DNA of 52,239 nt from Girardia tigrina (GCA_001938485.1 MQRK01226661.1:1-52239); one strand, 5' to 3'; positions 5,142-51,792 are shown, counted from the first letter of the stretch. A program made the numbers and translations. The notes: a model not told the origin generated them from the letters alone.

Positions 5142-5715
5142 TCTTTAATCTCTCTCCTGGCCTTATCACCCTGCCGAATTTTGCCTCGATGTTACACACA
5201 CTTCCACGTGCTTCCCATGATACATTATTGACTTGAGATTCGTTCCTTTGTATGTAATAACCGAAAATTTTCATGAATACTATGCCTCCTATCAGTTCCG
5301 GAACCACACTATCCACAACAATAAATGGTACTGCTTTCCTTGTTTGACATATATCTTCTTCTACCTCTATTTTACCCAATACTTTCAATTTTCCATCGGT
5401 GGCACCTCTCAAATTGATATCGCATTTTTCTAACACCAAATTATTCAAATCTTGATAATACTTCTTACTCATAACATTAACACCTGCTCCTGTATCCAAC
5501 AAACACTCCCACTGTTTCCCCTGAATTTCCACTGTAACGCTCGGACGCCCCTGCATTTTACTATAACATATCTCTGATTTCTGATCCTCAATCAACGCGT
5601 TAACATAAAATACTTGCTCAAAATTCTTTTTCACAAATCCATAGACCTTATTCATCGTTCGCACATCCAGCTCGCATCCGAATCCGTGGGAATTATCTTC
5701 TAAGATCAGTGGCAT
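5122..5715 (-). CDS. Retroviral-type aspartic protease
   Basis: ECLLDTGAGVNVM and LIGGIVFM motifs. Confidence 0.85.
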   Translation of the reverse strand: MPLILEDNSHGFGCELDVRTMNKVYGFVKKNFEQVFYVNALIEDQKSEICYSKMQGRPSVTVEIQGKQWECLLDTGAGVNVMSKKYYQDLNNLVLEKCDINLRGATDGKLKVLGKIEVEEDICQTRKAVPFIVVDSVVPELIGGIVFMKIFGYYIQRNESQVNNVSWEARGSVCNIEAKFGRVIRPGERLKSVRLHR

Positions 5716-6972: not shown

Positions 6973-7900
6973 TTAAAAAATTAACAACAACACTCTCTTA
7001 CAATCTTTATCTGTGACATTAATATTTTCAATTTTGCAAAGGAACTTCATTCTTTTTGCTTCCAAGTGGCACTTCAAATGAAGATCGTTCAGTCTTTCAA
7101 TTTCTCTCACCAAAGCGACACCGCATACACTTTTAGTCAGCTCCTTCGGAATTCTCGTCATTACATCTGCTTTATTCAGCTTGCTCGGCACAAACTCTAT
7201 ACTAATAGTTAAATTAAAATCATTGCAAATTTCTTTAATAATAGATAACCGCCGTCTGATGAGCAATTCTGAAAAAGCACTCGTGTTTAGTCGAGACTTA
7301 CTTGTTAACACGTCATTCACCCAGGCAACCACAAATTTGTTATCACACTTCACTGTGATGTCTGTCATTCCCAATTTCACGCATAAATTCAACCCCCTAA
7401 CAACCGCTTCCAACTCCACTATATTGATGTGCCGTGAATCATCCTTTTTCCTTAACCAAGATCCATCCTCGATGATTTTACCATTAACTTCCAGCAAAAC
7501 CCCCAACGCGATTAAATTAGCATCGAACCACAGAGTACACGTTTTGCATTCTCCAATGCTCCAGATGCCTCGACAACGGTCATTTTCTGCAACTCTTTCC
7601 AAGATCCATTTCATCTTCTCCATCACCGACATGTCCACTGGTGAGTCCCAATCACCCTCCGATGCTCGTTTGAGATGAGAACATGCCAATCGTAACCATG
7701 ACGCCATAGGGTAGATGCCAGTAAGTTGTCCGCATAAAGAATAAAGCTCTTGCCGTGACATCGGTTCAGATAAATCTTCGACGCGAATCCGATTCGCTCG
7801 GTTCCACACCATGCTCCCGTTGATGTTGTTGACTTCCAATCCAAGCACTCTTACTTTTGTGTCACGATTAACACGCTCAGATTGTTTGCACTCTAACCCT
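6973..7900 (-). mobile_element. Gypsy-like pol fragment (RT C-terminus, RNase H, start of integrase zinc finger); same family as the 17-20 kb element
   Basis: SRQELYSLCGQLTGIYP, LWFDAN, IIEDGSWLRKKDDSRHINIVELEAV, NKADVMTR; homologous to ORFs 18330-18872 and 17186-18217. Confidence 0.85.
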
Positions 7901-7914
7901 GGATAATTCTATGC

Positions 7915-8073: not shown

Positions 8074-11000
8074 GTGTAAACAATATAAGAAATATAGGGA
8101 GGCGGAAACGACCACCCAATCTAGTGGTACCGGTAGAGGCCGAATGAAAAGAACCCCGGTAAAAACCATGACACGGTTCACCAGCCATACAAATTTATGT
8201 AGGACCAAACGGGTAATTTTGCCAACTGATAATAAAAATTAACTATTGTTATCAAATTTCATTGGTCCTGTACGCATAATATAAATACATAAAACATATC
8301 AGTTATAATTATCACCCGTTTTTTTATTAACAAAAATATATGTCTTCTAACAATTCCAAAGAGCGGAAATAATAAAAATAATATATTCATAAAATATTAT
8401 TTGATAATAATATTAATTAACTAAATAATAAATAATACCTATATTAATAAAAATAATATATTCTGTAATCTATGTTAATATATTTTATTTTATATAACGA
8501 AAGTAACATTGTAAATAATAAAATTTTTATAACTATTTTTGTTTAAAAGCAACAAATGTTGACAAATATTAAATAAAATCACCTTTTATGTTCTTTTTAA
8601 TTATGTTTGAATGATTTGGCTTTTATTATTATTTATTATAAAAGGAAAACATTTGCAGATGCGTGAAAGTCAAATGGTAAATATTATATTATTTATATTT
8701 TAGCAGTATTATTTTAGAATATTATTTTGAACACCGATTTGCATCATGCGTGACATGAGGGCTTTGAGGGCTGCACGAAACGATTTATCAAGAAATATTC
8801 TATATGAGCATATTATCATAATATATGACGTTTAAAAATAAATTGTGAAAAATGGCGTTCACTTTTTAATAACAAATTTTATTGGTAAAAATTAAAATGA
8901 TTATTAATTATTTAAAAATTATTTAATTATTAGTAAAATCATTTAAAATTTGCAATCATAATTAACTAAAAATAAATTCCAATATTAAATTTTAATTTTA
9001 ATTAAATTAATTTTAGATAACAAGAATTAAAGTACAAATCGGCTGTCTGAGTGGGAGTGACACACTGCCCAATCAAAACACAACATTCAAACACAAATCA
9101 TCAAACATTCTTCACCATTCCCAAATCTTTAAAATATTAAATTTTAAATCTTTTAAAATAATATCAATTATTTAGAACCTCAATAATTCAAAATCTTTAT
9201 ATTGCTTTTAAAAAAATTCATTTTAGAAATTATTATTTATTTCAATATTATTTATTTCAAAATTTAATTTTTCTTATAGAAAATTTATAATTAAAAATTA
9301 TTTAAATTTCGATCAGCAAAACGATAATTCACGAACTTCTTTTCAATTGTTTCCGAAAATTTACCGGAAAAGATCAATTTTCAATCAAGTCAATATATAA
9401 AGTCACTAAGGTCTTTTTACAATAAGTAAATTGGTGCAATTGAATTATGAACGGATCAAACATTCATCATTAACATTCTTCATCATCAATGAAGAATTTC
9501 TTTGGAAATTTCATAATTTTCGAATTATGAAAATTATTGAAATTATGATTAATTATCGAAAATTATGAGTAGATTTAAATTGTATTTAAATTGAATTTGT
9601 TTAACTGAATAAATATTAAAATAATCTGTTTCAAATTTCTGATCACAAATTATTATAAAAAAAAATTATCGGTGTTGCATAATAATGGATAACTTCGATT
9701 CATTTATTGAAATGGAATTCGTAGTACAATTTTCAACAAATGAAGTATTTCCGCTTGATTTAAATATATTTAAATACACTTCATTTATCAATAACTTCTA
9801 GAACTCGCCTTTCTCCAATTCTTCGAAGAATTTCCGGGCCAGGTCATTGTTCGGAACATCGAGATTCTTGGACTATGTTCCATCGTGTCGAAGGAACGAT
9901 TACATTGTGTGGAACATAAAGTGACCAGAGAGATCCGGGAGGAAAATGGTCCTTGGAAATTCAAAATAAACCGAAAGACATGAAAATGACGTTTGTTCAT
10001 TTGTTCTATCAGTTCTAACAATATACTTTGAGTAGATTTTCAATCAACGTTATCAAAACAGAGGGAACCAACAAACTGGATTTAGTAAAGCCTAAACCCC
10101 TTACAGATCTATTGCGAAAAATGATTAAGCCAGATTTTATCAATAATGTGACCGATATTATCATTATTCAACTGACGAAATATATGACGGTAAATTGATC
10201 AATCGTTTAATCTAAGATTCCAATGAATGCCTCACGATTTAGGGCTGTATGCACAGTTATAAAGAATTTCAGTTAGACCTCGGTAAAAGAAACAGAATCT
10301 TCCAACAATATTCCCAAGATTTGTTACTTACTGTCATTAATGGCTTCCAAAATTTCTATGTCCTCAAGCCACTAAACGCAAATGTCAGTGAATATTGATG
10401 TTAAGTGTTTTTTGATCATATAATTTACAGAAGCCACTCACTCCTACAAAACGGCGTAGGACTAGAAGTCAAGCAGAGATGGTTGAAACAAGTAAGGATA
10501 AAGTTTTGAACTTTATTCTACAGAGTCACCATCTCGGGAGAAGCTATCGACAATTAGAAGTAAGTTGATGTTTGCGATTTCAAGTATCAGTTTTTATTTT
10601 TTTAATTATTTACTACAAGTAATATAAAATAATTAGCTATTATAAAATATAAAATAATAGCCATTATAAAATAATAAATACTGATAATTGTTAATAATAA
10701 ATAATATAATTAAAAACCAATCAAACTGTGCATTGTCATAGTACATATTATAAACTATACAAATTATACGCCTGCAAAATTGAATTGAAACGAAAAATAT
10801 TTTAATTTCAAGCAGACTAAATATTGGAATGGCTATAATTTTCTTGAGGCAGAAAATCTTCTATGTCAATACACGATCGTTGTTGGAACAATTCTGCGCC
10901 ATGGTTTGAATGATCCTTATTAAGACTGCTTGCAAAATAACCCTACTGCATCATTTGGATGAAATACGCTTTCATCAAAGGATTTTTTTTCAGGTTTCGG

Positions 11001-11254
11001 AAAAGATTGTGATCAGGAGCTAAATATGGTCGTTGGTGTAGGAATTCTTATTTCGATTTTTGCCATGATCAAAATACTTTTTCGCTGTCATTTCTTGTAT
11101 TTATTATTTGTTTTCTTTTTTACATACTTGCTAAGACATTCGAATATATTGGACAATTATATTTCAATTTCCTATTATAACTTGTCAAACCCAAGAAACT
11201 AACTAAAAACTCCTTTCGATACAATCTTTACTGATTGCATATCAAAAAAACTAA

Positions 11255-11700
11255 AGTACATTCTTTATTCTTTGAAAATGTTTTTTCTTGTTTCATTGCT
11301 GTGTTTACATGGAGGACAGAATGTAAATATGTGGAGAAAATTTAGCTTCGCTTCACCATTCTGAATACCACGTTTTTCAGAAATAGATGTTAGTTGCTAA
11401 GATGTGCTTAAGATTTTATAAAAAAAAATAAAATAAAATTTTTGTCCAAATTTATAGCAAAAATTGTCATAGATTTAACAAATTGAAGTAAAATTCATGA
11501 GAAAATTATAATAATTATAAAAAGTTTATAAGATTAAACAAACTGACCTGGACAAGCTGTGTAACGGCATCATTATCGAGCATCTTGGACAACATGCTCA
11601 TTATACCCTTCAAAGATAATCCCGATACATCATGAAAATGAAACCAGCTGATCATTTCCAAATACGTTGTGTAGTAGAACCCTTCAGTTTTATTTCCAAA
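11255..11700 (-). other. Possible spliced host-gene fragment of unknown function
   Basis: Open exon ...FYYTTYLEMISWFHFHDVSGLSLKGIMSMLSKMLDNDAVTQLVQ, then a GTCAGT donor, an AT-rich intron, a TTAG acceptor and an in-frame exon QLTSISEKRG... Confidence 0.3.
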
Positions 11701-12599
11701 AAATTCAGGTAGGAAGTACAGTTTTTCATCATTAAATAATAACGGTTTCTGCCTGCATTATTCAACATATGAAAAACACTGATAATGATATTTCGATTTA
11801 CATTTCAATATATATCGATTCTTTGGGCAATTTGATGAGCCAAGATATGATAAATTCATGCGACACAAAATGAAAATTGTTAAAGCCAACCAAATAAATC
11901 TATTAGACGATTTACAGACGATAATTATTCATTTATAATTACTTTTTTGTCTTCTATTAATAGTTTTACGTCTTCCAAAAGTGAATATATTGTGATATTG
12001 GAGAATTTGACCTGTAATTTATAATTATAATGAGTCCATAAACAAATTATTTTGAATTATATGAATATAATCGGAAGGAATTCAATTTATTACTTGTTCG
12101 ACCTCGAATACAATCAATAATACCTCTAAAAATTCTATAGAAGGTGTAAAAATTATGTTTCATTAGAAATTGATTAGTTTCCAGTCTCCCTATTTCACTC
12201 ACCACAACAATTGAAGACATCTTCCATCTTTCACATAACTTACGATGACAGTATGAAAATTCATTAGAGCCACATGCAGTATTCAGAATAGTGAAGCGAA
12301 GCTAAATTTTCTCCACATATTTACATTCTGTCCTCCATGTAAACACAGCAAAGAAACAAGAAAAAACATTTTCAAAGAATAAAGAATGTACTTTAGTTTT
12401 TTTGATATGCAATCAGTAAAGATTGTATCGAAAGGAGGTTTTAGTTAGTTTCTTGGGTTTGACAAGTTATAATAGGAAATTTAAATATAATTGTCCAATA
12501 TATTCGAATGTCTTAGCAAGTATGTAAAAAAGAAAACAAATAATAAATACAAGAAATGACAGCGAAAAAGTACTGTGATCATGGCAAAATCGAAATAAG

Positions 12600-12810
12600 A
12601 ATTCCTACACCAACGACCATATTTAGCTCCTGATCACAATCTTTTCCGAAACCTGAAAAAAAATCCTTTGATGAAAGCGTATTTCATCCAAATGATGCAG
12701 TAGGGTTATTTTGCAAGCAGTCTTAATAAGGATCATTCAAACCATGGCGCAGAATTGTTCCAACAACGATCGTGTATTGACATAGAAGATTTTCTGCCTC
12801 AAGAAAATTA
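12600..12810 (+). mobile_element. Mariner transposase C-terminal relic (mirror copy at about 10835-11045 on the minus strand)
   Basis: PYLAPDHNLFRNLKK ... FHPNDAV ... YFAS ... RSCIDIE, similar to mariner PDLAPSDYHLF.NLKK ... RW.KCI. Confidence 0.6.
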
Positions 12811-14480
12811 TAGCCATTCCAATATTTAGTCTGCTTGAAATTAAAATATTTTTCGTTTCAATTCAATTTTGCAGGCGTATAATTTGTATAGTTTATAATA
12901 TGTACTATGACAATGCACAGTTTGATTGGTTTTTAATTATATTATTTATTATTAACAATTATCAGTATTTATTATTTTATAATGGCTATTATTTTATATT
13001 TTATAATAGCTAATTATTTTATATTACTTGTAGTAAATAATTAAAAAAATAAAAACTGATACTTGAAATCGCAAACATCAACTTACTTCTAATTGTCGAT
13101 AGCTTCTCCCGAGATGGTGACTCTGTAGAATAAAGTTCAAAACTTTATCCTTACTTGTTTCAACCATCTCTGCTTGACTTCTAGTCCTACGCCGTTTTGT
13201 AGGAGTGAGTGGCTTCTATAAATTATATGATTAAAAAACACTTAACATCAATATTCACTGACATTTGCGTTTAGTGGTTCGAGGGCATAGAAATTTTGGA
13301 AGCCATTAATGACAGTAAGTAACAAATCTTGGGAATATTGTTGGAAGATTCTGTTTCTTTTTCCGAGGTCTAACTGAAATTCTTTATAACTGTGCATACA
13401 GCCCTAAATTGTGAGGCATTCATTGGAATCTTAGATTAAACGATTGATCAATTTACCGTCATATATTTCGTCAGTTGAATAATGATAATATCGGTCACAT
13501 TATTGATAAAATATGGCTTAATCATTTTTCGTAATACATCTGTAAGGGGTTTAGGCTTTACTAAATCCAGTTTGTTGGTTCCCTCTGTTTTGATATCGTT
13601 GATTGAAAATCTACTCAAAGTATATTGTTAGAACTGATAGAACAAACATATTTTTTATTAATAATATTATTTAACTATTTTTAGTTATCATTTAGGAATT
13701 CAAATCTTTCGATTGATTTCGAATAACAGAAATGATAATAAAACCAAAATAACAAAGTTTTATTTTAATACAAGCAAGTTTTATTTCAAAATAATTTTTA
13801 AACGTAATTTTAATACTTCTACACTTAATTATCGCTTGATTTTCACAATATTTGTTCAATTTATTAATTTTTTTCGTACATCAGTAAAGTAAATGTTTTA
13901 AAATATTGTATTGTCATCGGAAGCAAGCCTGTATAAAAAATTCAGCTCAATTGGATGATTGAAAGTGGTCGAAAAATCAATCACAAGATTTGTTCCAGAC
14001 AGACAGACAAGAAACCAAGCTAAGAAAAACGTGGTAAAAACAATTGAAACTGAATGAATTGAATTGATGAATGAATTCATCAGATCTTGGCTCATAAAAT
14101 TGTCAACACAATCGACTTCTAAATAAATAAATATCGAAAATATTGCTGCAAAATTTTATCCTCTATTCTATTTTTCGATGACAAAAATTGTCGATAGCTC
14201 ACAATTTAATTACCTCTTATATTAAAAGAATTTTTTTAATTTAAAATTGTTTAACAAATTAAAAATTTAATAAATATTATAATATAATATATTATATTTA
14301 ATATATTTTATTTTAATAATAGTAATAAATAATTTTTATTTTGTTACTATTTAAAATTATTTTTATGAACGTCATAGTTTTTTGACAGAACCCATTGTTC
14401 CAAATCATTTTGTCATAAAAATTTCATATTATTTTTTTGTTTTCTTCTTTTTTAATATATGCAGAAAAAATTTTTCCTCA

Positions 14481-17185: not shown

Positions 17186-18217
17186 CTAATAAGAGTTTTG
17201 CTGCAGGTCTGGTTGTCTTGGTCGAATATCTGCTATATGCCGTAGACCGCAAAAACCATTACAATTTATTAAGTACTTTCTTTGATCCAATTTTCTAACG
17301 ACAACGCCTCTTCTCCATTGCTTTGTACATAGCATATTATTTTCAGACTTTACCCAGACTAACTGTTGCTCTATGAAGTCTGTCTTTTCCTTAATGTAAA
17401 CCGGCTCCTTTTCAATTCTTTCGATTATCTCCAAACTGACTGGAATGTACTTGTAAAGTGCTGAACCAGGTGTCTCGTTTCCGTCGGACGGTGTATTGTT
17501 ATACCACCATAAGGCTTCCATGATACTGATATTCGATCGAGACGCAATTCTCTTGATTGTCTTATGATTTCTCTCTATTATTCCGTTGCAATTTGGTCGA
17601 TTAATAGCGCGGTATANNNNNNNNNNNNNNNNNNNNNNNNNNNNNNNNNNNNNNNNNNNNNNNNNNNNNNNNNNNNNNNNNNNNNNNNNNNNNNNNNNNN
17701 NNNNNNNNNNNNNGCAGAACAAATTTGAAAACTCTGTAACAATCGACTTGACATCCTCAGCTTTGATTAGTTTCCATACTGCAAATCGAGAGGGTCCACA
17801 ATCAATGATACTTAAGAATTTTGGTTGATCAAATTTTGTGACATCCGCTGCAAGTCTTGTCCAGTTTTCATTGACAGTTAATTTTCCAGTTTCCCATTTT
17901 ATTGGTGCCGGATCAATAGATTGACAACTTTGACACTTCGAGATCAAATCCTTTATATCCGCATGTGACACATTTATTTCCAACTTATCGCACAGATATC
18001 GCATTCCCTTTGCACCTAAGTGACATCTGTCATGAAGTTTCTGTAGTTTGAATATGTCATCTATTACAGACAAAAGGCATCTGCTTCGTTTTAATTGTTT
18101 GGGTATTCTTGTCAGTTCATCAGCCTTATTGTCTTCACTATTAACAAACTCAATTTTCAAAGTTATTTCGTATTCCTGGCACAACTCCTTAATCATTGAC
18201 AATCGGCGCTTTATCAA
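17186..18217 (-). CDS. End of RNase H plus integrase (spans an N-gap)
   Basis: HHCC motif, DDE core and C-terminal GPY/F-like region (WRRGVV...RHIADIRP). Confidence 0.85.
   Translation of the reverse strand: MIKRRLSMIKELCQEYEITLKIEFVNSEDNKADELTRIPKQLKRSRCLLSVIDDIFKLQKLHDRCHLGAKGMRYLCDKLEINVSHADIKDLISKCQSCQSIDPAPIKWETGKLTVNENWTRLAADVTKFDQPKFLSIIDCGPSRFAVWKLIKAEDVKSIVTEFSNLFCXXXXXXXXXXXXXXXXXXXXXXXXXXXXXXXXXYRAINRPNCNGIIERNHKTIKRIASRSNISIMEALWWYNNTPSDGNETPGSALYKYIPVSLEIIERIEKEPVYIKEKTDFIEQQLVWVKSENNMLCTKQWRRGVVVRKLDQRKYLINCNGFCGLRHIADIRPRQPDLQQNSY
17617..17713. other. Assembly gap (N run)
   Basis: Run of n. Confidence 1.
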
Positions 18218-18361
18218 AAGCTCGAAAAAGGCTTTCGTGTGAAATTTATTTCGCTCTGATAGTGCCTCAGTTATCCAAGAAACAACTGATTTGTTATCTG
18301 ATTTTACTACAACATTCGTTAGTCCCCATTTAATACACAGATTTAGACCCTTTACAACTGC

Positions 18362-18400
18362 NNNNNNNNNNNNNNNNNNNNNNNNNNNNNNNNNNNNNNN
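18362..18400. other. Assembly gap (N run)
   Basis: Run of n. Confidence 1.
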
Positions 18401-19862
18401 TTTTCCTTAACCACGATGCGTCTTCTATAATATTTCCTTTAACTTCCAATGCTGCCCCAATGGCTATCGAACTGGCATCACACCATATGATGCCGTCTTT
18501 ACAATCATCAATACTCCATTTTTCTCTACAAGGATCTTCCTCCTTAACTTTTTTCAAAACAAATTTGATTTTCTCGAATAATTCGACATCTATTTTCACA
18601 TCCCATTTTCCTTCACTGAGCCTTTTCATGTAGGAGCATGATGGACGTAGCCAACCTGCAACAGGGTGGATTCCTACTAATTGGCCACACAGCGAATATA
18701 ACTCGCGACGCGATATTGATTCGGCAACTATCTCGTCCATGAAATGATTATCTCTCATCCATCTCACCGAATTCTTATCCTTAAAGACTTTAACTCCCAA
18801 CACTCGCACCTCTTTATCCATTGAGAGATTTTCTGGTTTTTTACATTTAAGACTAAATTTCTCGAACAGCATTCTAATTTCGTCAACTGTGATTGTAGAT
18901 CAGTTGTAGATTGTGCTCTAGGATCAGAATTTAAAATCCACTTGACAATTTCAGTCATAATGGTCGGAGCGATATTTAAACCAAAGCCCATCCTGGTTAG
19001 AGCGTACTTTTTTTCCATTAATGACACGTGATTGATAACGCCACATTTCCTTGTGAACGCGAATCTGCATATACGCCTCTGATAAATCAAGCATGGAAAA
19101 TTTTGATCCTTTTCGCCGCCAGGTGCGAAGTTTTTCCAAACATATATCTGCTGAGCCACTGTACACGTCTACATAATTGTTTAATTTCTTAAAATCAAAG
19201 ATCGGTCTTATCTTTGATTTGTTAACTTGCAATATTCCAAATATGGCTATAGATCCTATCGATTTACCCATTTCCTGCTCGTCATAATCCATTAAATAAC
19301 CCTTCTTCATGCACTCCTCAAGGATTTTCATTGTAGCTATGTCTTTCGATTTGTCATCCTTAAAGATCGAATGTCGAATTGGTAGATAAATAGGCTATTC
19401 ATCTTTCCACTTTCATTTAACCGTCCAATTATCCTTAAATTCAATCTCATAATTGTGTTTGTCCAGGCTAACTCTTGCACAACACCCGTGACACAACTCA
19501 TATTGTCACCAGCCTTCTTTAGTCCTTCTCCTACACACACACCAAATTCGATAACACCCTTATTAATTTTCACACCCCCAAGTTCACTTATAACATCCAT
19601 ACCAATTAAAATTCCCAAATTAAGTATTTCATGACAGCACATTCTACTTTCATATTTCTATTGTCTATAGTCAATTCACATCACTAATCCCCACACATAT
19701 ATCATCGCCATTAGTCAAAACAATTCTTTGCTCATTTGACTGTAACAAGTTTCCCTTGATCAACCCTTTCAAAACAGCAGCTTTTGAGCAACCCGAATCT
19801 ATCAACGCTGTAACCGACTTTTTGTTAACAATGACAGTCATGGTTGGCAGCGCCGGAAATGT

Positions 19863-19907
19863 CAGAGGGAGAGAGCCGGCGCCTACAAACTCCCCTGTCC
19901 GTTTCCC
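19863..19907 (-). promoter_or_regulatory. -1 frameshift signal (G GGA AAC plus stem-loop) between gag and protease
   Basis: GGGAAAC at 19901-19907 in gag frame (S-G-N). The -1 frame reads VGKRTGEF into LIDSGC. Downstream stem caggggag/ctccctctg. Confidence 0.8.
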
Positions 19908-20401
19908 GACTTGCAATATTTTGCAATATGTCCAACTTGCTTACATTTATAGCAAATTATTTGTCCATTAGATTGCCGCTGAGAATTTTCATAACGGTTT
20001 ACCCTTGTTTGTACCAGATTTCCGTCATGTGGCATACGGGGTTTTGTAAAGGAACTCCTTCTACCACCACTGACCTCACCTCGTTCTTTAGAAACGATCT
20101 TGCCATCACCAACGTTTTGTACCACTGACATTGAACTTTGTGTGACGCATTTTTTAATTCCTAAATACCTGCGACTATATTCAACCATTTCGGTTAAATC
20201 TTGATCGCCGGCCTGCTCTAAATTCAATTGCAACTCGAACGGCAATCCAGCCATAAAGGCCGCCTTGGTCAGATCGTCGATTTTTGATGCCAACATCTTT
20301 ACTTGAGAAACGTAATCGTCAATAGTTTGTCCTTCGTAATATTTCAAATTAATCAGTTGACTGTATGCAGATCGTCTGGTTAATCCGAATGAATTGTCCA
20401 A
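19883..20401 (-). CDS. gag: Gag C-terminal part with CCHC knuckle
   Basis: AFMAGLP and CYKCKQVGHIAKYC. Confidence 0.85.
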   Translation of the reverse strand: MDNSFGLTRRSAYSQLINLKYYEGQTIDDYVSQVKMLASKIDDLTKAAFMAGLPFELQLNLEQAGDQDLTEMVEYSRRYLGIKKCVTQSSMSVVQNVGDGKIVSKERGEVSGGRRSSFTKPRMPHDGNLVQTRVNRYENSQRQSNGQIICYKCKQVGHIAKYCKSGNGQGSL

Positions 20402-20499
20402 GATTTACAGTACTTCTTCACAGTTGCTCTGTTTCTTTTCATCCAATTCCATGTATATATTTAACGGAACATCAGTGAACAAAAAAGGAAGATATGGGG

Positions 20500-21385: not shown

Positions 21386-22513
21386 GGAAGCTATTGATTG
21401 TTATTTTAATTGCGAAGCATGAGTCAGTGATTTTAGTAAGAAGAGAACATTAAAGACTTAAATGGAAAAATATTCCAACCGAAAAAAAGTATTAGAAGCA
21501 TCTTCAAAAAGTTTGAAGAAACAGGAAGCGTTCTAAATGCCCCAAAATCTGGAAGACCACAAATTGACGATGAAAAGAAAAATGAGATAGCAGAACATTT
21601 TAAGCAAGAACCCCAGTATTCTATCAGGAAATCGTTGTCAACTCTGAATTGCTCTTATGGAACTGTTCAAAAAGTATTACGAAACGACTTTAAAATGTAC
21701 CGCTACAGAATTCAAGCCACGCAATTTTTGTATGAAGAAGATTGCGCTCTTAGACGTCTTATGTGTGAAACGTTAATTCAGTAGATAGATGCAGATGAAA
21801 ATTTTCTTAGTAACCTGATATTCTCTGATGAGTCAACTTTCCATCTTAAAGGCATTGTAAACGGACATAACTGTCGCATTTGGGGCACTGAAACACCAAC
21901 TAAAACATATCAGATGTCACAGGCTAGTGAAAAAGTTAATGTTTGGATGGGGTTGTCTTTAACTCTTGTTTATGAGCCCTTTTTATTGAAGAAAACATAA
22001 CAGCGGCGCTTTACCTGGATATGTTAAAAAGTTGCTTTATGTCATTGTTATCAAGAACATGCAAACGGAAAGCTGTGTTCCAGCAAGATGGAGTATCTGC
22101 TCATTATTCACTGATTGTGCGTCAATTTCTGGATGAAGCGTTTCCAAAACTTTGGCTCGGACGATGTGGTCCATATGTATGGCCGGCCACGTCATCTGAT
22201 TTGACACCACTCGATTTTTTTGTGTGGGGGTATTTGAAAAAGGAAGTTTATAAGAGAAAACCAGAAACAATTCAGTAACTTAAATATTTTATTTGTCAAG
22301 AAGCGGCAAAAATAGATGGTGAAATGTGCAAAAATGCCATTAAGTCTTTTCATGGATGTCTTAAACATTATATTGATGTTGATGGTTATTCTATTGAATA
22401 TTATTAAATTTTAATAAATGCTTTTTTGTTATTTAAAACCATTTTTTTCATAATGTTTTGCCAAAAAAAGTTAATGCGGTTTAAAACCTGGTAGTTACTT
22501 TATGATCACTCTG
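21386..22513 (+). mobile_element. DD41D (rosa/Visitor) Tc1/mariner transposon, 5'-truncated pseudogene
   Basis: KKFEETGSV, IFSDESTFHL..VNGHNCRIWG, FQQDG-(41 aa)-TPLDFFVWGYLK. The 3' TIR ends ...atcactctg followed by TA. Confidence 0.9.
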
Positions 22514-39066: not shown

Positions 39067-40598
39067 TTAGGTTGATGCAAAAGAAATGTCGTCTTTAATG
39101 TATTTAATATTCATTGTTTGAAATATTTAGAAAATCAATAATAAATAGATTCATATTTAAATTTACTTTAAAGCTTAAACTTTACTCTATATTTTGATAC
39201 CAAGTATGACATTATTGTTGTTAATTTAAGGTGTATTTATTTTATTTTAGAAATGTTGGAAAAGAAGGAAATAAGAACAATTTTATTCTACGATTTCAAA
39301 CTAGGTCGAAAAGCGACAGAAACGACTCGGAATATTAACAATGTATTTGGACAGCATGCCATTAATTTACGAACAGTACAACGTTGGTTTGCAACGAGAG
39401 CCTTGAAGATAACGAACACGGTAGTCGACCATCACAAGTTGCCGATGACCATTTAAAGAAGTTAATCAATGCCGACCCGTATAAAAATTCACGGGAAGTC
39501 GCTCAAGAATTCAACGTTCACCAATCAACAGTTGTTCGCCATCTGAAGAAAATCTGAAAAGTGAAAAAGTTGGACAAGTGGGTTCCGCATGAATTAAACG
39601 AAAATCAAAAAAATCGTCGTTTTATCGAGTGTTCTTCTCTGCTTTTGCATAATCAAAGCGACACGTTTCTGGATCGAATTGTAACATGCCATGAAAAATG
39701 GATCCTATACGACAACCGGCGACGTTCAGAAAATATCGCAGATTTTGCAATGCGTGGTTCGTGTAAAAGAAAGATCGCTTAAAAAGAAATAGAATATGCG
39801 GCCACCGCAAAAATAAGGACGTAACAAAAACGCATAGTGCGTTAATATAATAATAATAAATTAGATTTTATTTAAATAATATAAATAAATAACATATATA
39901 AAATTAATTTATTTTAAATAAAATTATAGATAATAAATATAAATAAAATTTACAACAAAGACGATTATAATAAATAATAACCAATAAATAATAACGTCGT
40001 ATTATTTAACACAACAAAAAAATAAACTTCAATTGTTTATTAACAATAATAAAATAGACAAAAAAATAAAAATAAATTGTTTTTATTTACCTTCCCCAAC
40101 ACATTACAGCTTCCCAAAACAAGGCGAAACAATTACAGCGGAAAAATATTGTCAGCAAATTGACAAAATGCACTAAGAACTACAAAAAAGCAACCGGGAT
40201 TACTCAATAGAATGGAGCCAATTCTTTTGCATGACAGCTCTCATACACATGTTGCTAGAAAGGCCATGCTAGAGATAAACGAACTGGGATAGGCAACTTT
40301 GCTTCATCCACCGTACTCACCAGACCTTTCTTCTAAAGTCTATCACCTTTTCATACATTTCAACCAGTTCCTTTGTAAAACATGCTCCAGAAACCAAGGA
40401 GATTCTAAAAGAACCTTGGACGACTTGTTCGTCTCCAGAACTCCAGAATTTTATGAAACTAGGATAGAAAACTTGTTACCCGTTGGCAACAGTGTGTTCA
40501 ATGTAATGCTTTTTATTCTGCTAATAAAGTTAATTCTAAAGAAAGTTATGTTCATTTAAAGTTGACGGTTAAAAAACATTTCTTTTGCATCAACCTAA
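39067..40598 (+). mobile_element. Mariner transposon (cecropia/Hsmar1-like) with both TIRs, pseudogenised
   Basis: TIRs ttaggttgatgcaaaagaaatg / catttcttttgcatcaacctaa; YDFKLGRKA, WVPHELNENQK, IVTCHEKW, LLHDS, HPPYSPDLS. Confidence 0.95.
39730..40101 (+). mobile_element. Partial LTR-like AT-rich insertion replacing part of the mariner catalytic domain
   Basis: Mariner homology stops at DNRRRS and resumes at HYSF; the insert has AATAAA upstream of a ...CCCCAACA end. Confidence 0.45.
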
Positions 40599-43738: not shown

Positions 43739-44045
43739 TTACATATTTCTTCTCATTGAAAAAATGCATATATTACATGATTTTGTATTAATCGCTTGTA
43801 CAGTCGCTTGTATTAATCTGAATTGTGTCTTGTCTTCCATATATTGATATAAATGTGGTTGGAGTTCTAGATCTATCGGTAAGTTGTATTCTCGTCCGAA
43901 CATAGCTTTGTAGGGTGATATTTCCGTCGCTTCATGAGGAGTCGCTCGTATTGCCATCATTATTAAATTTAACATGACATCCCAGTTCGTCGTATATCTA
44001 TTCGTATAGCATGATAATATGCTTAGTCTGTCGCAAAAGTCCTCA
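43739..44045 (-). pseudogene. Gypsy-type integrase C-terminal core fragment
   Basis: EDFCDRLSI/LSCYTNRYTTNWDVMLNLIMMAIRATPHEATEISPYKAMFGREYNLPIDL. Confidence 0.85.
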
Positions 44046-44178
44046 GGTGGCCTTCAAAAACACACTAATATTTTACCAAATTTAACCAAATTTGGACTGA
44101 ATATTATTCAGACTTTCATAAGTACTGTGTTAAAATTTCACACCATAAAATTAAAAAAAAGTAAAATTTTGTTTTATT

Positions 44179-45200
44179 GGAGCAGGTCATGTTTATCGGT
44201 ACGATTTCTACTGGTAATATTAATCTTGTTACTGGCTGTAAATATCTTGTTGCATTGTTATGTCGTACTGGCAGTTCTTTATAACATATCCCTCTCATAG
44301 GCTGCATCTCGACGTCCACCTGGACACATTGATAAACGTACATTACTTCACCGAGGATTCTTCCAAATTGTCCTGTAGGTAGCGGTAGTAATGGGACTAG
44401 TGAGTCCGTATTTACTGTAGCAACACCCAACTTTAGCCTCAGTATTTTTTTGTTTAATTTACAGTCATTTGTCACCATGTCGAGGTATATTTTCTCCATT
44501 TTTTATTCTTGTCTATTGAATAGAAACGCCAATTTATTGTTCACATAAGCCTCTCATTTCATGTCCGTAGGTTCCACTCTAGTCCTTGTCACTCTTGTTT
44601 TGCTTAAATAAAAGCCTTTGTAGTTTGTTGCAAACATTTTCGTGTTGCATCTTGAGACGGTTTCCTTTTTAATGAATTCTATACCAACCTTTTCATTCCT
44701 TGAAATGACTGCTATTGGTGTATCTTCTAAATCTAACTGAACTTTGGCTTGGGCTTCATCTTTTAACAGGCATGTCATGTACTAATCTCGCTCCTCCTTG
44801 CTGAATCGGTTTGCCAGGATATTTATCGAAATAACCTTCCTTTAAAAATGTCAACTGACATCGTTCATGGAGTAGATTGTAGGCTAGCGTCGATAATCCG
44901 GCATCACAATATCTCTCTTTTATTTTACAATTCAACCACTGTTTCACGCAACCAGAACTGGTATCGTACCAACCGTCATACTCTTTTAATTCTAGCTCAT
45001 ACATGTCTCGCACCATCACATTGTGTCTATCTCCCAATTTTCCGCCTTGACTTGATTCGTCGGTCATAGTAAATGCTCCTGTGTCTAATGACGAATATTA
45101 TTGTTTATCAATTTTCATATTGTCGCAGTTCCAACCGAGTATAGCGTGGCTCATTGGAATTTGTGTTAGGAACACTAGTAATATGATGATCAATTGTAAG
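44179..45200 (-). pseudogene. env: Chuvirus-like (class III, gB-type) envelope glycoprotein, fragmented and C-terminally truncated
   Basis: Signal peptide LIIILLVFLTQIPMSHA|ILGWNCD; CNTKMFATNYKGFYL; AYVNNKLAFL; IYLDMVTNDC; LGEVMYVYQCVQVDVEMQPMRGICYKELPVRHNNATRYLQPVTRLIL, matching the chuviral GEVxYxxxCxxVxV...CYxELPV...FLxPxTRIL pattern. Confidence 0.8.
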
Positions 45201-46222
45201 GCTTTTTGAACTTGTGGTAGTCTTTGTGTGGTTCTTGTTCGTATCAATTTTTAACATAATTCCTTCATCTGTTCAATTGTCGTTTCTTGTAGTACTTCGA
45301 AATCATCACTTTCTTGTTGTAATCCGTCTTCAATGAAACTGTCCCATCCTCCTAAGTCTTGTTTACTCGGTTCGATATGTTTCTTGACTATTTCTGTTAG
45401 AGCTTTTATTAGTTTCTCACATTTTTGGCAGTCCTGGTCGAGTTTATTGGCATAGAATGATATTACACATGCTAGTGCAACTTGTAGTCTCAGTTTTCTT
45501 TTCCTTTTGCTAAATAATTCTTCACCGCGTTCTCTACGTCCTTAAGCGTCCGATTTTTGATTTTTCTATCGACTTCTCTGATTATTGCCGTTAATACTTC
45601 ATTTATAGGGTAACTTTTCGACGGTAATTTGATTGTTCTGACGTTCCATGTTTGTCCCGTCACCCATCTCATATATATAGTCTTACTTCATCGGCCAATA
45701 TCATCTCAGTCATGTCATTTCCTATCGGCACGTCGGTACACTGATTTCTCAGTATTTTCAATCCTTCCAGTGATCTCTGTTTCGGCGTTAATCTCGAAAC
45801 AGTTTGTCCAGATGTACCTGGTACATTATCAACATTTATCGCATTCTTTTTGCTTTTAATTTGCGCTGGTTTCCATGATTTTGTCGTTTGTGCTCCTTGT
45901 TCCGTTGTCTCCAGGTGATTACCTGTTTTTCGATCTGCATACTAATCCATGTAGGTTTGTTTCAATATTGGTCTTGTTGGTTCGATAACTGGGAGGTTTG
46001 ATATTATTTCTTGCAATGAATCGTCTATATCCACTCCGAATGGTCTGACTGGCCTTTGATAGGTTTTCCCTGTTGACGACTGTGAACTGATTGAGAGGTT
46101 CGTATCTTTGCTCTACACGATATATGGTAACTGCCCAACGGTCGGTTATATTTTTGGTGTCTCATCCCAGTTTTGAACCCGAAGGCGCTCACTGTATTTT
46201 TAATTTTACCTTTAGGATTCAC
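45201..46222 (-). pseudogene. Broken ~330-aa leader ORF of unknown function, running into the glycoprotein frame
   Basis: Near-continuous coding frame with a few stops and frameshifts; the last segment (RLQVALACVISF...QKALQLIIILL) is in frame with the signal peptide. Confidence 0.45.
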
Positions 46223-46342
46223 ACTTAATATTTACATTTATCCCCTTATCCAAGCATTATTTCTCATTTAAAGATTATATACATACATACTTTTATTACC
46301 ATAAAACATTTATTATACATATATCATACTTCTATTATACAT

Positions 46343-46672
46343 CTATACAACACTTTCTAAATAGTCTTTTATCTCTATATTTTCTTTATTTTCGGCATCC
46401 AAGGCCTTTCGATAGGCAGTTATTCGCTTCTTTAATCTCTCTATTTTGGTTCTCTTCCTTCTGATTTTCGCATTGATTTCATGTATACGATTTTTGATTT
46501 CGTCCACTACTTCTGAGGTTGTTTCTTCCCAGTAATAGGTATCGTCTAATCTTTCATATACGTTTTTCATACTTTCCAATTTATTCAAATATCTTTTCTC
46601 CAATATGCGAAGGTCTATCAAAACTCCGACTTTATTTTCTACTCTATCCAATATACTTTCCAATATCCTCAA
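46343..46672 (-). CDS. Basic, coiled-coil-like hypothetical protein; first ORF after the PBS
   Basis: 109-aa ORF with heptad-like IKNRIHEINAKIRRKRTKIERLKKRI. Confidence 0.45.
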   Translation of the reverse strand: MRILESILDRVENKVGVLIDLRILEKRYLNKLESMKNVYERLDDTYYWEETTSEVVDEIKNRIHEINAKIRRKRTKIERLKKRITAYRKALDAENKENIEIKDYLESVV

Positions 46673-47403
46673 GGTAAGATGTCTTGGTATTTCTCGGTCA
46701 TTGTCTCTCGTTTGTTTGTGTTTCTACAGTCAATATTTCTTCTATTATTCCTGCATTTGAGGTTCCGGTCTCTCATGGTCATTAATTATACTGAAAATAT
46801 TATCCATTAAATCATTTTCATTTATCAATTCTCATCATTTATTTCATCATTATTTATATCTTTTCTATTTCTCATATTTCTCATATTTCATCAATCAATT
46901 ATTTATCTCCATTATCGCTTCATTTTCATTTTAATATTCTTCTGATTTTATCAATTACATATCACTTATCGTTAATCTCTTTCTCATTTCGTTTTTAACA
47001 TATATTTCATTTCTTTATCATCCGAAGTCGATTTTTCTTTTTAATTCAAATACATTGTACTCCATTTTTTCTATCTTTATCGTTGTGCGCCATTATTTTT
47101 GTCCTTGTAATCTAATGTCTTTCATAAAATTCACAAATTTCTGTCTCGATTGGAGTTCATAAATCTACAATATCAATTATAACATAAATTCATTAAATTT
47201 TCAAATATTTATCTGTTCAAATCATTATTAATATACACATTAAAAACTCCATTAAACTTCATCATCCCGGGGATAGTATTATTATTTCATATTTTCCGTC
47301 CCAGCTCAAGGCGTTTCATTGTGAACCATTTATTCTAAATCGTAACATCGATCCTCAAAATCTCTTTCCTTTAATCATGGATCGAAGGCAAACACGTGAT
47401 TCC

Positions 47404-47419
47404 TCCTGATCACGGACCA
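47404..47419 (-). promoter_or_regulatory. Putative primer-binding site, tRNA-His-like
   Basis: TGGTCCGTGATCAGGA versus the His-type PBS TGGTGCCGTGACCAGGA (one deletion, one mismatch). Confidence 0.55.
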
Positions 47420-47420
47420 A

Positions 47421-47845
47421 ATTTTTCTCTCAGTTCACGGAAGTTTCAGTTCTCTGGGTGGGAGGATTCATTTGCCGGCTAAATATATTATCGTCTTCTC
47501 CTCACCTACTAACCTTCACCCAGCCGCGATGCTCAAAAGCACGTCTTTACCTCCGCGAGGTTTATTGGCTACAACAATCTTTAGAGAGGCTGCTTCCTCT
47601 GGTCCCTATATATGCGCCCGTTGTTAACGAACACTCACCTCGGTTTTCTTTAGGTGTTTTCTCACCCCTTTTGATTACGGTGTCTAGTCACCGGGCACTC
47701 ACTGGCCATGTTTAATGGTCACATAGGGTGTTGCCGCTGAGATCGACTCTCGTGAGCAGTCCTTTCCGCTTGATTCCGTACTCACTCAATCCTCAGTTCA
47801 TCAGGGAGTACGTGTCCACTGATCGAGCAGGGCTCGACACGGATC
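47421..47845 (-). repeat. Putative 5' LTR (upstream-truncated)
   Basis: GC-richer non-coding block. On the minus strand: TATATA near 47610, then AATAAA at 47561-47566, then the PBS. Confidence 0.5.
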
Positions 47846-47858
47846 TTTAGAAGATTGA

Positions 47859-49570
47859 GTGTCTTCGAGGTCAAAAGAAAATTTCCATCGTGCACGAACT
47901 GTTCTGGATAACGAATTCTTTAATATATTAACAAATTCAAATATTTCCTCGGAAGAATATAAAGTTTCACAAAAAAATTGGATCGATTTAGGATGTAATA
48001 ATATAAAAGATTACGTCTCACAATACATGAAAACGGATGTATTGTTACTAGTAGAATTTTTTGAAAATCTAAGAAAAAAAATGTCTAGAATACTATGAAA
48101 TAGATTCATGTCACTGTTTTTCAGCACCAGGATTAACATGGCAAGCTGGAAGGAAATTTACTGGTCAAAAACTCAAATATTTTAAAGGAGAAACATATGA
48201 TATGCTTCTCTTTCTTGAAGCAGGAGTAATATGAGTTGCAACCGTATTGAGAAATAGATATATTGTTCCTCGTAATAAACATACTGAAGAAGATATCAAT
48301 AAAAATATTAGAATAACAGAATATGAATTTGATCTTATGTTAGAAGACTTTGAAAGATCAAAAGATAAAGCGAATTATGATTTTGATAAATTCTTCAGGG
48401 AAAATTATATTGTTTATTTTGATACAAACTCCTTATATTTTTCATCAATGTGTAAATTTTTACCAAAAGGAGAAATGGAATGGTGCGAAGATTTAACATA
48501 GGAAAAATCAATCAGGTTATGTATTTGAAGTTGATCTTGAATACCCTGATGAAATTAAGAAATATCATTTTATTATCCATTTTTCTCGAAAGATTAGTTC
48601 CTGATACTTCCTTTAAAGAGTTATCATCTTACGAAAAAATCTGTTTATACTGGGAGAAAGGATAAAACTGAAAAACCTGTGCAGACATATCTTGATAAAA
48701 ATAAATATATTGTTGAGGGGAAAACATTAGATTTTTATCTAAATGAAGAAATGATCTTGAAAAAAACCCATAGAAAATTAGTATATAAAAAATCTCCTTG
48801 GCTTAAACCATATATTGAATTTAATATTAAAAAACGAAAAGAAGCGAAACAAAAAGGAGATTCATTTGGGGATTTCTTTTTCAAATTATTATATAACGTA
48901 TTCTATGGTAAAACCCTAGAAAATATTAGAAATCACTCTAACATTAAAATAGTAAATAATGGAAAAACATTTGAAAAACTAGCTGGGAAACCAGAATATA
49001 AATCAATAACTCCCTTTAATAACAAACTTTGTGCTCTGGAAATGAGAAAAACTTCAATAAAATTTAATAAATTTAATTATATAGGGTTAACTGTTTTACA
49101 ACTCTCAAAATGTTTAATGTTTGAATTCGCATACAAGGGATTACATAGAACATGGGACTTTGAGTCTGGAAATATATTACTTCAGTATACTGATACAGAC
49201 TCTTTCTTTGTTCAAATATATGATAATTTTGAAAATATTTATGATAAACTAAATAATTGGTTACATCCAACTGAAAAAATTATTGAAGAAATGGTGAATA
49301 TTAAATCCAAAGATTATAGTTTTAAACATATTTTACTTGATAAAAATCTAAAGGGGAAACTTGTAGAAACAGGGGATTAAAGGATGTAATTTTTGCAAAT
49401 AGAGTTAATATTTTATTTAATAATGATTTAATCTTGAAAGAAGAAAAACATATTGTTTCTAAAAACCATGAAATAAATATAGTATCAAGAACTAAACAGG
49501 CATCCTTAGGATATGATAATAAAAGAAGAAGATATCCTCTAAATAACATTATGTCTTTCCCCATAGGTTT
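47859..49570 (+). pseudogene. Protein-primed family B DNA polymerase (Polinton/Maverick/adintovirus type), frameshifted
   Basis: YMKTDVLLL, FSAPGLTW, YFDTNSLY (motif A), FEVDLEYP, FFKLLYNVFYGK (motif B), YTDTDSFF (motif C). Confidence 0.92.
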
Positions 49571-51792
49571 TAATAAAGAAGAATTGACCTCCAAATATAT
49601 TTTATTTTAAAAAATGACTTGTGAAAATTCAAAAAAAAATTTTACTCTTAAAAAATATAATAAAGTATATAATAACGTTATTTTTTTAAATACGCAGCAA
49701 ATATTAGAAGATTTTAATAATGATTATGAAGATAGTGATTTTGAAAATAATTATGAAAGTAAGAGTTATAATATCAATGATAATATTGAAAGTGAAAGTT
49801 ATAATATAAATCAAAATGAATTTAATTTTCATTATGAAGGTATAGTTTATGCTAATACTCTTATTTATAGTGATTATTTTTTTTATCTTAACAATTGATT
49901 TTAATTTAGATTAAAAATATTAACCATACTTCCGTATGGCTTTTTCGTATCCGATTTTTTCGATTCCCATTTCCATTTTCTTTATTAAAAATATGAATTT
50001 TGAAAATTTTTGATAATAAATCTAGATTTTTTGATACTAAATCGATAATTTCTGTTGAATTTTGACTAATTTCTAATATTTTTAATAGAAAATCGATCAA
50101 AATTATTGATTTATTGCTATTTTCAAAAAGCCTCAAAAAGGCCCTTTTTGAAGGGTATGGGGTATTACCCCCATAATTACATTACTTCTGGGCTTTTATT
50201 TACTATATAATAAAATGCCTAACAAATAACTATTTGAAAACTTTACTTAACTTTTATTCATAATGTTTAAAAATTTTCCTTTCATAAATTATTTATGATA
50301 ACAATTATTATAACTGGAATTATTTGGATTGTAACATTTCATAAAAGTTAATTTATGATTTTCTTACAATTTTGAAGTAATTAAGTTTGTTGAAGGATTT
50401 ATTGTTGGTCAATTCGATGGAATAGATTAGCAAAAAAATCAAGACATGAAAGTATACCCAATTAAAGTATTTTTACTATTTTGTACCTTCTCTTCATATA
50501 CTGATTCAGTTTCATTTTTAGCTCAACTTTCGAAAGATTTAAAAGATTCCCAAACTCTTAATTACTTGCAAATATATTTGAATATAAAGGTAATCAAAAT
50601 TTATTTAAGATAAAAATTTACATTCGAAACAATAACAACAGTTGAATCTTTTCAGATTTATTTTTGTCCACAAGGTATAAGATTTCATCATGACCATAAA
50701 TCACATTGAAATCTGGAGTTATTTTTATTTTTGTTGCTATCCTCCTTGTGCCCATAATTGTTTCAATAATGTTAAACAGACCTATATTAAAGCCGGTAAT
50801 ATTGTCTTTGTGAATTTATCTCAGTTCTACTTCTAATTAAGCAAAAAATCTGGTCTTATCATATTTATAATTTCGTCTCATTTATTCAAGTAATTAAATA
50901 ATAGTCGCAATTTAATTTTAAAAGCATAAAAACGCCATTTATAAAAATTATATTTTCAAGGACAATTAAATTCGACGGTTTAACCATCATCGTCAGGTAA
51001 TCAAGAAAGTATGAATTTTATATCTGCTTATATAGGCAAGCAGTAATTATGCAACCAATTATAATAATTATGTCATCTAAACGTACTCAATAAAGTTTTC
51101 TTATGATCTTAAGACCTGAAATATAGTGCTTCACAAAAAAATGCTCCCGATAATTATTAAAACGAACACATTTAATTTTTAAATTATTTATATTTATGTT
51201 TACATTTGAATTAACAAAATTTATGTGTCGAACACTTTTACATCCACGCTTAAATTATGAAAATGCTCTTAAATTCTTTTACAGGGAGGACGAAACATCT
51301 CTCCAATGATTATGATATTAAACCCATTACATATAAATTGATATACGCGATTCGAATACAATCCAAGGGGGTTGGAGATTTATTGCACAATATATTTTTG
51401 ATTTTTTAAGTTTACTATTATTCTTAAAAATTAAAAGAATTATTTATACATTTTTAAATTGAACGTTTATGTGTGAATGTCTGATGATTCTGAAATTTGT
51501 GCATTGATTTGGGATTACGAGTGTCCAACCCAGATGACAGATTAATATTTTAATTCTTAATAACTGAAGCTACTTTAATTTAATTTAAGCTTAATGTTTT
51601 AAATAGTTTGAATAATTTATGTTTATTTTTTAGATATATAAATCAATTTAATATTTGTTTTAATATTCAAGTATCGAATTGTGATTAAAATAATTTGAAA
51701 ATAGTACAAACCTTCCAAAGTTTTTAAAGTTCAATTCCAATTAAAGTCCAGGGGATAAATCAACTTATAATATTAGGTCGTCCAGGATGATA

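What the first reader, a model, noticed from the sequence alone, without database searches (positions are those of the whole stretch)
43739..47845. LTR/PBS-led element with a chuvirus-like (gB-type) fusogen placed upstream of integrase and no gag in front of it
Seen, on the minus strand: LTR-like block, His-type PBS, long UTR, coiled-coil ORF, ~330-aa leader, signal peptide, glycoprotein with chuviral motifs, then a Gypsy integrase fragment. Known: chuvirus-like class III glycoproteins have been captured as env by some invertebrate LTR elements (e.g. mosquito BEL/Pao 'Anakin'), and env normally lies 3' of pol. Inference: this is a relic of an enveloped, potentially infectious retroelement with an env-first layout and novel accessory proteins. 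Caveat: the integrase follows a junction near 44050-44180 and may belong to a separate element.
Basis: partly seen in the sequence, partly recalled or inferred. Interest (0 to 1): 0.85.

Follow-up and report, generated by a model that had tools for sequence, protein, structure and literature searches.

The report
Broken relic of giant enveloped retrotransposon
This stretch is a truncated, internally deleted copy of a 29-kb retrotransposon, likely of the Burro type, whose fuller copies carry a herpes-gB-like fusion protein in frame between gag and pol, a layout already published; those copies also encode two predicted extra membrane proteins behind the integrase.

Summary
The gB/chuvirus-type glycoprotein is real (Pfam PF24664; the model of a natural relative matches chuvirus G and herpes gB), and it does lie upstream of an integrase of the same family. 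The window holds a relic that lacks its 5' end and has three internal deletions. Fuller natural copies in the same genome have gag: one open frame runs capsid, two zinc knuckles, unknown region, Bcl-2-fold domain, signal, env, transmembrane anchor, protease, dUTPase-like, RT, RNase H, integrase. One copy is 28.7 kb with paired 2.5-kb LTRs, a 4-bp target duplication and a tRNA-Pro primer site. The window's 'LTR/His-PBS' is internal leader, about 4 kb inside the element; its '330-aa leader' contains the Bcl-2-like domain. This matches the planarian Burro elements (PMC6431247) and the GAG-ENV-POL gB errantiviruses (PMC13524379), so the env-before-pol layout is known. Not found in the literature I could search: about 1,450 in-frame residues behind integrase, predicted to give two more type I membrane proteins, and eight short upstream ORFs; the parts tested are under purifying selection.

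The parts
46150..47909 (-). Internal 5' leader of the element, cut off at 47909; includes the block read as LTR/PBS
   Evidence: Matches C227859:53100-53554, 4.2 kb inside the 5' LTR end; no match to the LTRs; 77-90% identical to leaders of 7 close copies, 5 of which begin matching at 47908-47909 and continue upstream
46343..46723 (-). Last short upstream ORF before gag (coiled-coil-like, function not assigned)
   Evidence: 45% identical over 101 aa to the C227859 ORF at 52215-51877, E 2e-26; family dN/dS 0.05-0.24 in 8 of 9 pairs, one saturated; only weak coiled-coil Pfam hits below cut-off
46095..46149 (-). Deletion junction: gag and most of the unknown region are missing; a 35-50-base remnant is left
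   Evidence: 46100-46149 matches C215454:3126-3175 and 46098-46132 matches C218698:9575-9609, far from the flanking matches; protein match resumes at residue 1888 of the C249044 frame
45325..45720 (-).
   Evidence: Homologous region of a natural copy: profile hits Bcl-xL at E 7e-5; AlphaFold model pLDDT 75; Foldseek rows all Bcl-2 family, best E 4e-3; VIA-align ranks 1-35 all Bcl-2-fold, Z up to 11.2, rmsd 3.1 over 128 residues, next unrelated row Z 6.0. Ends approximate
45143..45199 (-). Predicted internal signal sequence of env
   Evidence: Sequence; hydropathy peak at the same place in natural copies and in distant relatives
44176..45142 (-). gB/chuvirus-type class III fusogen, N-terminal and middle parts, with an internal deletion near 45080 and no C-terminal part or anchor
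   Evidence: PF24664; model of an unbroken natural relative pLDDT 88 matches herpes gB at E 7e-14 and chu-like/mononegaviral G at E 2e-34, TM up to 0.69; extent
44027..44175 (.). Short interspersed repeat of about 155 bases, unrelated to the element, sitting at the junction where about 1,380 codons (env end to mid-integrase) are missing
   Evidence: 91-96% identical matches on many contigs, 1,279 candidates, 40 scored; size of the gap
43790..44026 (-). Integrase core fragment of the same family
   Evidence: 81-88% protein identity; inside the family's 11-row clade at 100/99 support in a 21-row tree

Best explanation
The stretch is a dead, 5'-truncated and three-times-deleted copy of a 29-kb Ty3/gypsy LTR retrotransposon, likely of the Burro type, whose fuller copies carry gag, a Bcl-2-fold domain, a gB-type env and pol in one reading frame, and which likely spread as an enveloped particle. 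Shown: gene order, single frame from capsid to integrase, LTR pair, target duplication, tRNA-Pro primer site, folds of env and the Bcl-2-like domain (predicted models), purifying selection. Inferred mechanism: one polyprotein of roughly 5,700 residues is threaded through the ER membrane. Gag, the unknown region and the Bcl-2-like domain stay in the cytosol; an internal signal sends env into the lumen and, once signal peptidase cuts, would remain as the tail anchor of the Gag-Bcl-2 part; env's anchor returns the chain to the cytosol, so protease, RT and integrase hang on env's tail until the element's protease frees them; two further signal/anchor pairs behind integrase would give two more surface proteins. 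Capsid, fusogen and enzymes would thus meet on one membrane at equal amounts, without frameshift or env splicing. The Bcl-2-like domain would hold off apoptosis in the producing cell.
For: C249044:17434-29859 is one open frame of 4,142 codons, free of gaps and stops from residue 162 to 3408, i.e. capsid to RT, with Ty3_capsid, zf-CCHC, ubiquitin-like, PF24664, protease, dUTPase-like, RT, RNase H and rve hits in that order. C227859:31463-60179 has LTRs of 2,473 and 2,528 bases (97% over 748 and 99.7% over 606 bases), TG...CA ends, a TAGT duplication and a PBS complementary to host tRNA-Pro. Window pieces map collinearly onto these copies. dN/dS for env 0.01-0.22 in 20 of 23 pairs (3 pairs with a distant family 0.36-0.42 at saturated dS); Bcl-2-like 0.09-0.24 in 13 of 13; post-integrase parts 0.08-0.23 in 9 of 11 and 0.08-0.14 in 6 of 8. 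Database relatives have env fused upstream of protease/RT. The same anatomy is described for Burro.
Against: No held copy is unbroken from start to end; the ~5,700-residue length is inferred from overlapping open frames in separate copies, and the 4,142-codon frame contains 183 unknown residues in 5 gaps. The middle 1.1 kb of both LTRs is N. Capsid, ubiquitin-like, dUTPase-like and protease Pfam hits are below curated cut-offs. MATH, BIR and ankyrin, named for Burro, gave no Pfam hit in this family. Membrane topology rests on hydropathy and flanking charge only; the third signal did not pass my 19-residue threshold. No Burro sequence was available for direct comparison. Particles, cleavage and anti-apoptotic activity are untested.
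Confidence: 0.88

Rival explanations
1. One reading: an LTR and His primer site lead directly to accessory ORFs and env, with no gag in front.
For: In the window alone the order is leader, short ORF, env, integrase, and CA-TGG stands at 47710; 2 of 9 held copies share that reading.
Against: The block is internal leader, the true LTR and Pro-type PBS lie 4 kb further upstream, and gag lies between the short ORF and env in every held copy that covers both. A remnant of the deleted region survives at the junction.
Confidence: 0.02
2. The integrase fragment comes from a second copy of the same family that came to lie next to the env relic, rather than from the same insertion.
For: A foreign 155-base repeat separates the two pieces; the window's closest env relatives held here do not cover integrase, so a same-subfamily test was not possible.
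Against: Same strand, same order as in full copies, same family in the tree; one deletion explains it, and the copy has two other deletions.
Confidence: 0.1
3. Same element, but env and the other membrane proteins serve budding into internal membranes or cell-to-cell passage inside one animal, with no free infectious particle.
For: No particle or expression data; RNA-run contigs were uninformative. A tethered polyprotein fits budding at the ER as well as at the cell surface.
Against: Env keeps a full class III fold and is as constrained as RT (dN/dS about 0.01-0.09 in most close pairs), which says fusion was needed; it does not say over what distance.
Confidence: 0.35

Closest known systems
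Burro / GYPSM1 giant gypsy-like LTR retrotransposons of dugesiid planarians (PMC6431247, section 7 read in full; figure not seen)
   Same: Size class; gag with two CCHC knuckles; ubiquitin-like domain; BCL2-like domain just before env; mononegavirus-like env in frame between gag and pol; dUTPase-like domain between protease and RT; upstream accessory ORFs; many decayed copies.
   Different: Total 28.7 kb against 'exceeds 30 kb'; inferred polyprotein about 5,700 against 4,873 and 5,140 residues; no Pfam sign of MATH, BIR or ankyrin; the section does not mention membrane proteins behind integrase or the primer tRNA.
GAG-ENV-POL HSV/gB-type errantiviruses of Platyhelminthes, Nematoda and Bryozoa (PMC13524379; abstract, section 5 part 1, section 14, passages, rows of supplements 1 and 2)
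   Same: Ty3/gypsy pol, gB-type env, gag-env-pol order, multicopy. Six Schmidtea elements span 14.5-18.0 kb, like this family's 17-kb coding span; their env domain rows resemble this env by eye (not computed).
   Different: That study lists no LTR or tRNA for the six Schmidtea elements, and its main text has no hit for Bcl, polyprotein, in-frame or accessory.
Mosquito BEL/Pao elements with chuvirus glycoprotein
   Same: Same glycoprotein family.
   Different: BEL/Pao rather than Ty3/gypsy backbone; nothing here points to BEL.

Membership tests
Burro | Giant size (internal region up to 25 kb, total above 30 kb) | tested here: met
   C227859 copy: 23.7 kb internal, 28.7 kb total; slightly under the quoted total
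Burro | N-terminal Gag with 2-3 CCHC knuckles | tested here: met
   Ty3_capsid E 5e-6 (below cut-off) and two knuckles
Burro | env in frame between gag and pol | tested here: met
   Gap-free, stop-free frame of 3,247 codons from capsid to RT in C249044
Burro | BCL2-like domain directly before env | tested here: met
   the alignment rows were picked for their GGW motif, so one search is not independent of that choice
Burro | Ubiquitin/SUMO-like domain upstream of BCL2; dUTPase-like domain between protease and RT | tested here: met
   PF00240 E 6e-5 to 4e-3, PF00692 E 0.0055, both below cut-off but at the expected places
Burro | MATH_TRAF_C, BIR, ankyrin or midasin-like domains | tested here: inconclusive
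   No Pfam hit in the polyprotein pieces or in 7 of 8 upstream ORFs scanned; the paper used more sensitive profile searches and says content differs between species
Burro | Sequence or RT-tree relationship to Burro1/GYPSM1; dugesiid host | not testable with these tools
   No named Burro sequence held; host not determined
GAG-ENV-POL gB-type errantivirus | Ty3/gypsy pol (PR-RT-RH-IN) | tested here: met
GAG-ENV-POL gB-type errantivirus | gB-type ectodomain between signal and transmembrane segment | tested here: met
   (natural relative; the window copy lacks the anchor)
GAG-ENV-POL gB-type errantivirus | LTRs, PBS, multiple copies | tested here: met
GAG-ENV-POL gB-type errantivirus | Position in the published POL tree and cysteine-bridge class | not tested
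   Published sequences seen only as supplement rows
BEL/Pao with chuvirus env (Anakin) | BEL/Pao gag and pol | tested here: not met
   Ty3_capsid, RT_RNaseH, Integrase_H2C2 and rve hits; no Pao-type family listed

The most novel reading that the evidence does not exclude
These giant retrotransposons build a multi-protein envelope: a gB fusogen plus two further type I surface proteins encoded in frame behind the integrase, all cut from one membrane-threaded polyprotein in the manner of a flavivirus, with env's signal doubling as the tail anchor of a captured Bcl-2. The post-integrase proteins would be the receptor-binding or triggering partners that herpes gB needs (gH/gL-like in role, not in sequence), a design not described for a retrotransposon in the papers I could search.
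Probability: 0.3. Interest if true: 0.72.

Novelty: new member of a known kind. Interest (0 to 1): 0.36.

Why it matters
The window itself is ordinary debris and the headline layout is published. The family still adds testable detail on how an env placed inside gag-pol can work: a hydropathy pattern that predicts five or six membrane crossings in one polyprotein, structural support for the Bcl-2 domain, a host-matched tRNA-Pro primer, and conserved proteins behind integrase with no family match. If those are envelope partners of gB, invertebrate retroelements would have assembled a multi-component entry machine like that of herpesviruses.

Tried and rejected
LTR/His-PBS in the window: rejected. 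tRNA genes in the window: none. Post-integrase region: no Pfam hit above noise, no ESM Atlas hit, no database homolog among proteins of 47-998 residues with a 6-row alignment (longer proteins not searched); it was not folded, both fold jobs being used. Bcl-2-like domain: no Atlas hit, no Pfam Bcl-2 hit in this family, single-sequence PDB hits only at E 0.14 or weaker; Foldseek E-values stayed above 0.001. Upstream ORFs: no assignable family; only one pair is directly similar at E 1e-4, with further weak cross-matches in other copies. Expression: contigs of three public runs (two leaf-litter RNA libraries of one study, one of uncertain type; word shares 0.10-0.15) cover 30 of 30 bins of a fuller copy, but contigs cannot show transcription, no silent control was laid, and no joint suggested splicing: inconclusive. 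The original Burro genome paper was not held, so its domain tables and supplements may already describe the post-integrase region. Earlier scan notes: none returned.

Full report
Observation. The minus strand of 43739-47909 holds broken coding pieces. Window 44116-44502 hits Pfam PF24664 Monjiviricetes_fusion at E 5e-19. A DNA search of the own genome (G000, 1.43 Gb) with the glycoprotein gave 246 candidates; the 40 scored gave 45 matches, those outside the window at 69-87% identity. The Pfam family gave 4,312 candidates, 68 scored. The stretch is thus one copy of an abundant repeat.

What fuller copies look like. I fetched natural stretches around these matches. C227859:31463-60179 (minus) is a 28,717-base element: LTRs of 2,473 and 2,528 bases, 97% alike over 748 and 99.7% over 606 bases with N in the middle of both, TG...CA ends and a 4-base target duplication TAGT. 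Directly after the 5' LTR stands a primer site; its complement occurs in the genome (18 matches, 0 for the reversed control), and the 7 genes that ARAGORN called in the 4 loci returned are all tRNA-Pro(TGG). A 6.3-kb leader with eight short ORFs of 98-157 codons follows (a ninth of 66 codons was set aside), then gag. C249044:17434-29859 is one open frame of 4,142 codons with 183 unknown residues in 5 gaps, none between residues 162 and 3408. Pfam order: Ty3 capsid, zinc knuckles, ubiquitin-like, PF24664, protease, dUTPase-like, RT, RNase H, integrase; capsid, ubiquitin-like, protease and dUTPase hits are under the curated cut-offs. Behind integrase the frame runs on for about 1,450 residues. 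Each junction is open in at least one copy, so a single polyprotein of about 5,700 residues is inferred; no held copy shows it whole.

What the window is. Mapped on these copies: 47909-46150 is internal leader with the last upstream ORF (46343-46723); gag and about 1,900 codons are missing near 46095; 46088-45080 covers the pre-env region, signal and first 21 env residues; about 104 codons are missing near 45080; 45079-44176 is the env middle; a foreign 155-base repeat follows; 44026-43790 is integrase. The six aligned pieces hold 6 stops and several frame changes. The window has no match to the LTRs, and the supposed His primer site lies about 4 kb inside the element and keeps CA-TGG in only 2 of 9 copies. 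The integrase piece falls in the family's clade of 11 of 21 rows at 100/99 support; whether it is the same insertion as the env piece is likely, not shown.

Folds. An unbroken natural env ectodomain (553 residues, 117-row alignment) folded at pLDDT 88. It matches herpes gB (best E 7e-14, TM about 0.4) and chu-like and mononegaviral glycoprotein models (best E 2e-34, TM up to 0.69); the sequence profile also finds gB weakly (E 0.003). The '330-aa leader' contains a Bcl-2 fold: profile E 7e-5 to Bcl-xL (rows chosen for their GGW motif), model pLDDT 75, Foldseek rows all Bcl-2 family but above E 0.001, VIA-align ranks 1-35 all Bcl-2-fold with Z up to 11.2 over 128 of 137 residues against 6.0 for the first unrelated row (Z under 13 for helical bundles needs this margin to be trusted). 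The same motif precedes env in 5 of 20 database relatives inspected.

Selection. Pairwise dN/dS against one reference copy (pairs not independent): env 0.01-0.22 in 20 of 23 pairs, capsid 0.06-0.25 in 12 of 12, Bcl-2-like 0.09-0.24 in 13 of 13, unknown region 0.14-0.40 in 12 of 12, first post-integrase part 0.08-0.23 in 9 of 11, second 0.08-0.14 in 6 of 8, two of the eight upstream ORFs 0.05-0.24 where dS is not saturated. All were maintained as protein while the family spread.

Post-integrase region. Three strong hydrophobic segments, the second and third followed by basic residues, and a weaker signal-like stretch after the second predict two type I membrane proteins of about 520 and 550 luminal residues. 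A sister family keeps the first signal, the first anchor and the second signal-like stretch at 21-30% identity. A third in-genome family and 4 of the 5 database relatives that reach past integrase also have a signal-like and an anchor-like segment there, without sequence similarity to this family. No family, Atlas or database match was found. This topology is predicted from hydropathy only.

Mechanism (inferred). One polyprotein threads the ER membrane: cytosolic Gag-unknown-Bcl-2, internal signal, luminal env, anchor, cytosolic protease-RT-integrase, then two more surface proteins. Signal peptidase and the element's protease would cut it. The env signal would stay as the tail anchor of the Bcl-2 part (Bcl-2 proteins are tail-anchored: own knowledge), and pol would be tethered to env until maturation, so that all parts meet on one membrane. 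Reverse transcription is primed by tRNA-Pro; integration leaves 4-base duplications (one copy seen).

Comparison with the literature. PMC6431247 section 7 (read in full) describes Burro: giant planarian gypsy-like elements, Gag with 2-3 knuckles, ubiquitin-like, BCL2-like, env with mononegavirus hits in frame between gag and pol, dUTPase-like, upstream accessory ORFs, and decayed fragments in one species. PMC13524379 (abstract, section 5 part 1, section 14, passages, rows of two supplements) reports GAG-ENV-POL gB-type elements in Platyhelminthes, Nematoda and Bryozoa. The host here is probably a planarian by this resemblance; I did not test it. Searches for a description of membrane proteins behind integrase or of the primer tRNA found none in listings or in the parts read, but the original Burro paper, its supplements and Repbase could not be seen.

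Verdict. A real feature, an ordinary broken copy of a known kind of element. Interest 0.36, carried by the family's post-integrase proteins and upstream ORFs, which lie mostly outside the window.

Noticed in passing
G000:C227859:51877-57604 (minus); L042: Eight short, mostly helical ORFs in the 6.3-kb leader, conserved across subfamilies; at least three look like paralogues. How gag is translated behind them is unexplained.
   Followed up: partly
G000:C227859:34240-38217 (minus); L040: About 1,450 in-frame residues behind integrase, predicted to give two type I membrane proteins with no family match.
   Followed up: partly
G000:C178456, C186892, C226414 (L078, L083-L087): A second, shorter (about 16 kb, 724-base LTR-like repeats) env-in-polyprotein family with a Bcl-2-type motif before env and ankyrin-like repeats (seen by eye, no Pfam hit) plus a signal/anchor pair behind integrase.
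   Followed up: partly
G000:C246636, C242717 (L075-L082): A sister family, 67% identical in pol and 36% upstream, with the same post-integrase layout.
   Followed up: partly
P0002, P0004, P0011: Post-integrase ectodomains of database relatives carry an L-x-P-x-T-x-Y motif recalled from fibronectin type III domains; several relatives have two or three aspartic protease domains.
   Followed up: no
window 47859-49610 (+): Decayed ORFs whose motifs recall a protein-primed B-family DNA polymerase (Polinton type; recalled, no Pfam hit); the relic's cut 5' end abuts them.
   Followed up: partly
window 3396-6539 (-), 6976-7908 (-), 17189-20404 (-): Other LTR-retrotransposon relics without env (RT, RNase H, zinc knuckles, DUF7047).
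   Followed up: no
window 10000-11368 and 12279-13646: Inverted repeat of about 1.37 kb per arm, 98-99% complementary, 910 bases apart: a young foldback-type element or an assembly feature.
   Followed up: no
window 21440-21781 and 39172-40559: DNA-transposon relics (helix-turn-helix hit; mariner-like motifs recalled from the translation).
   Followed up: no
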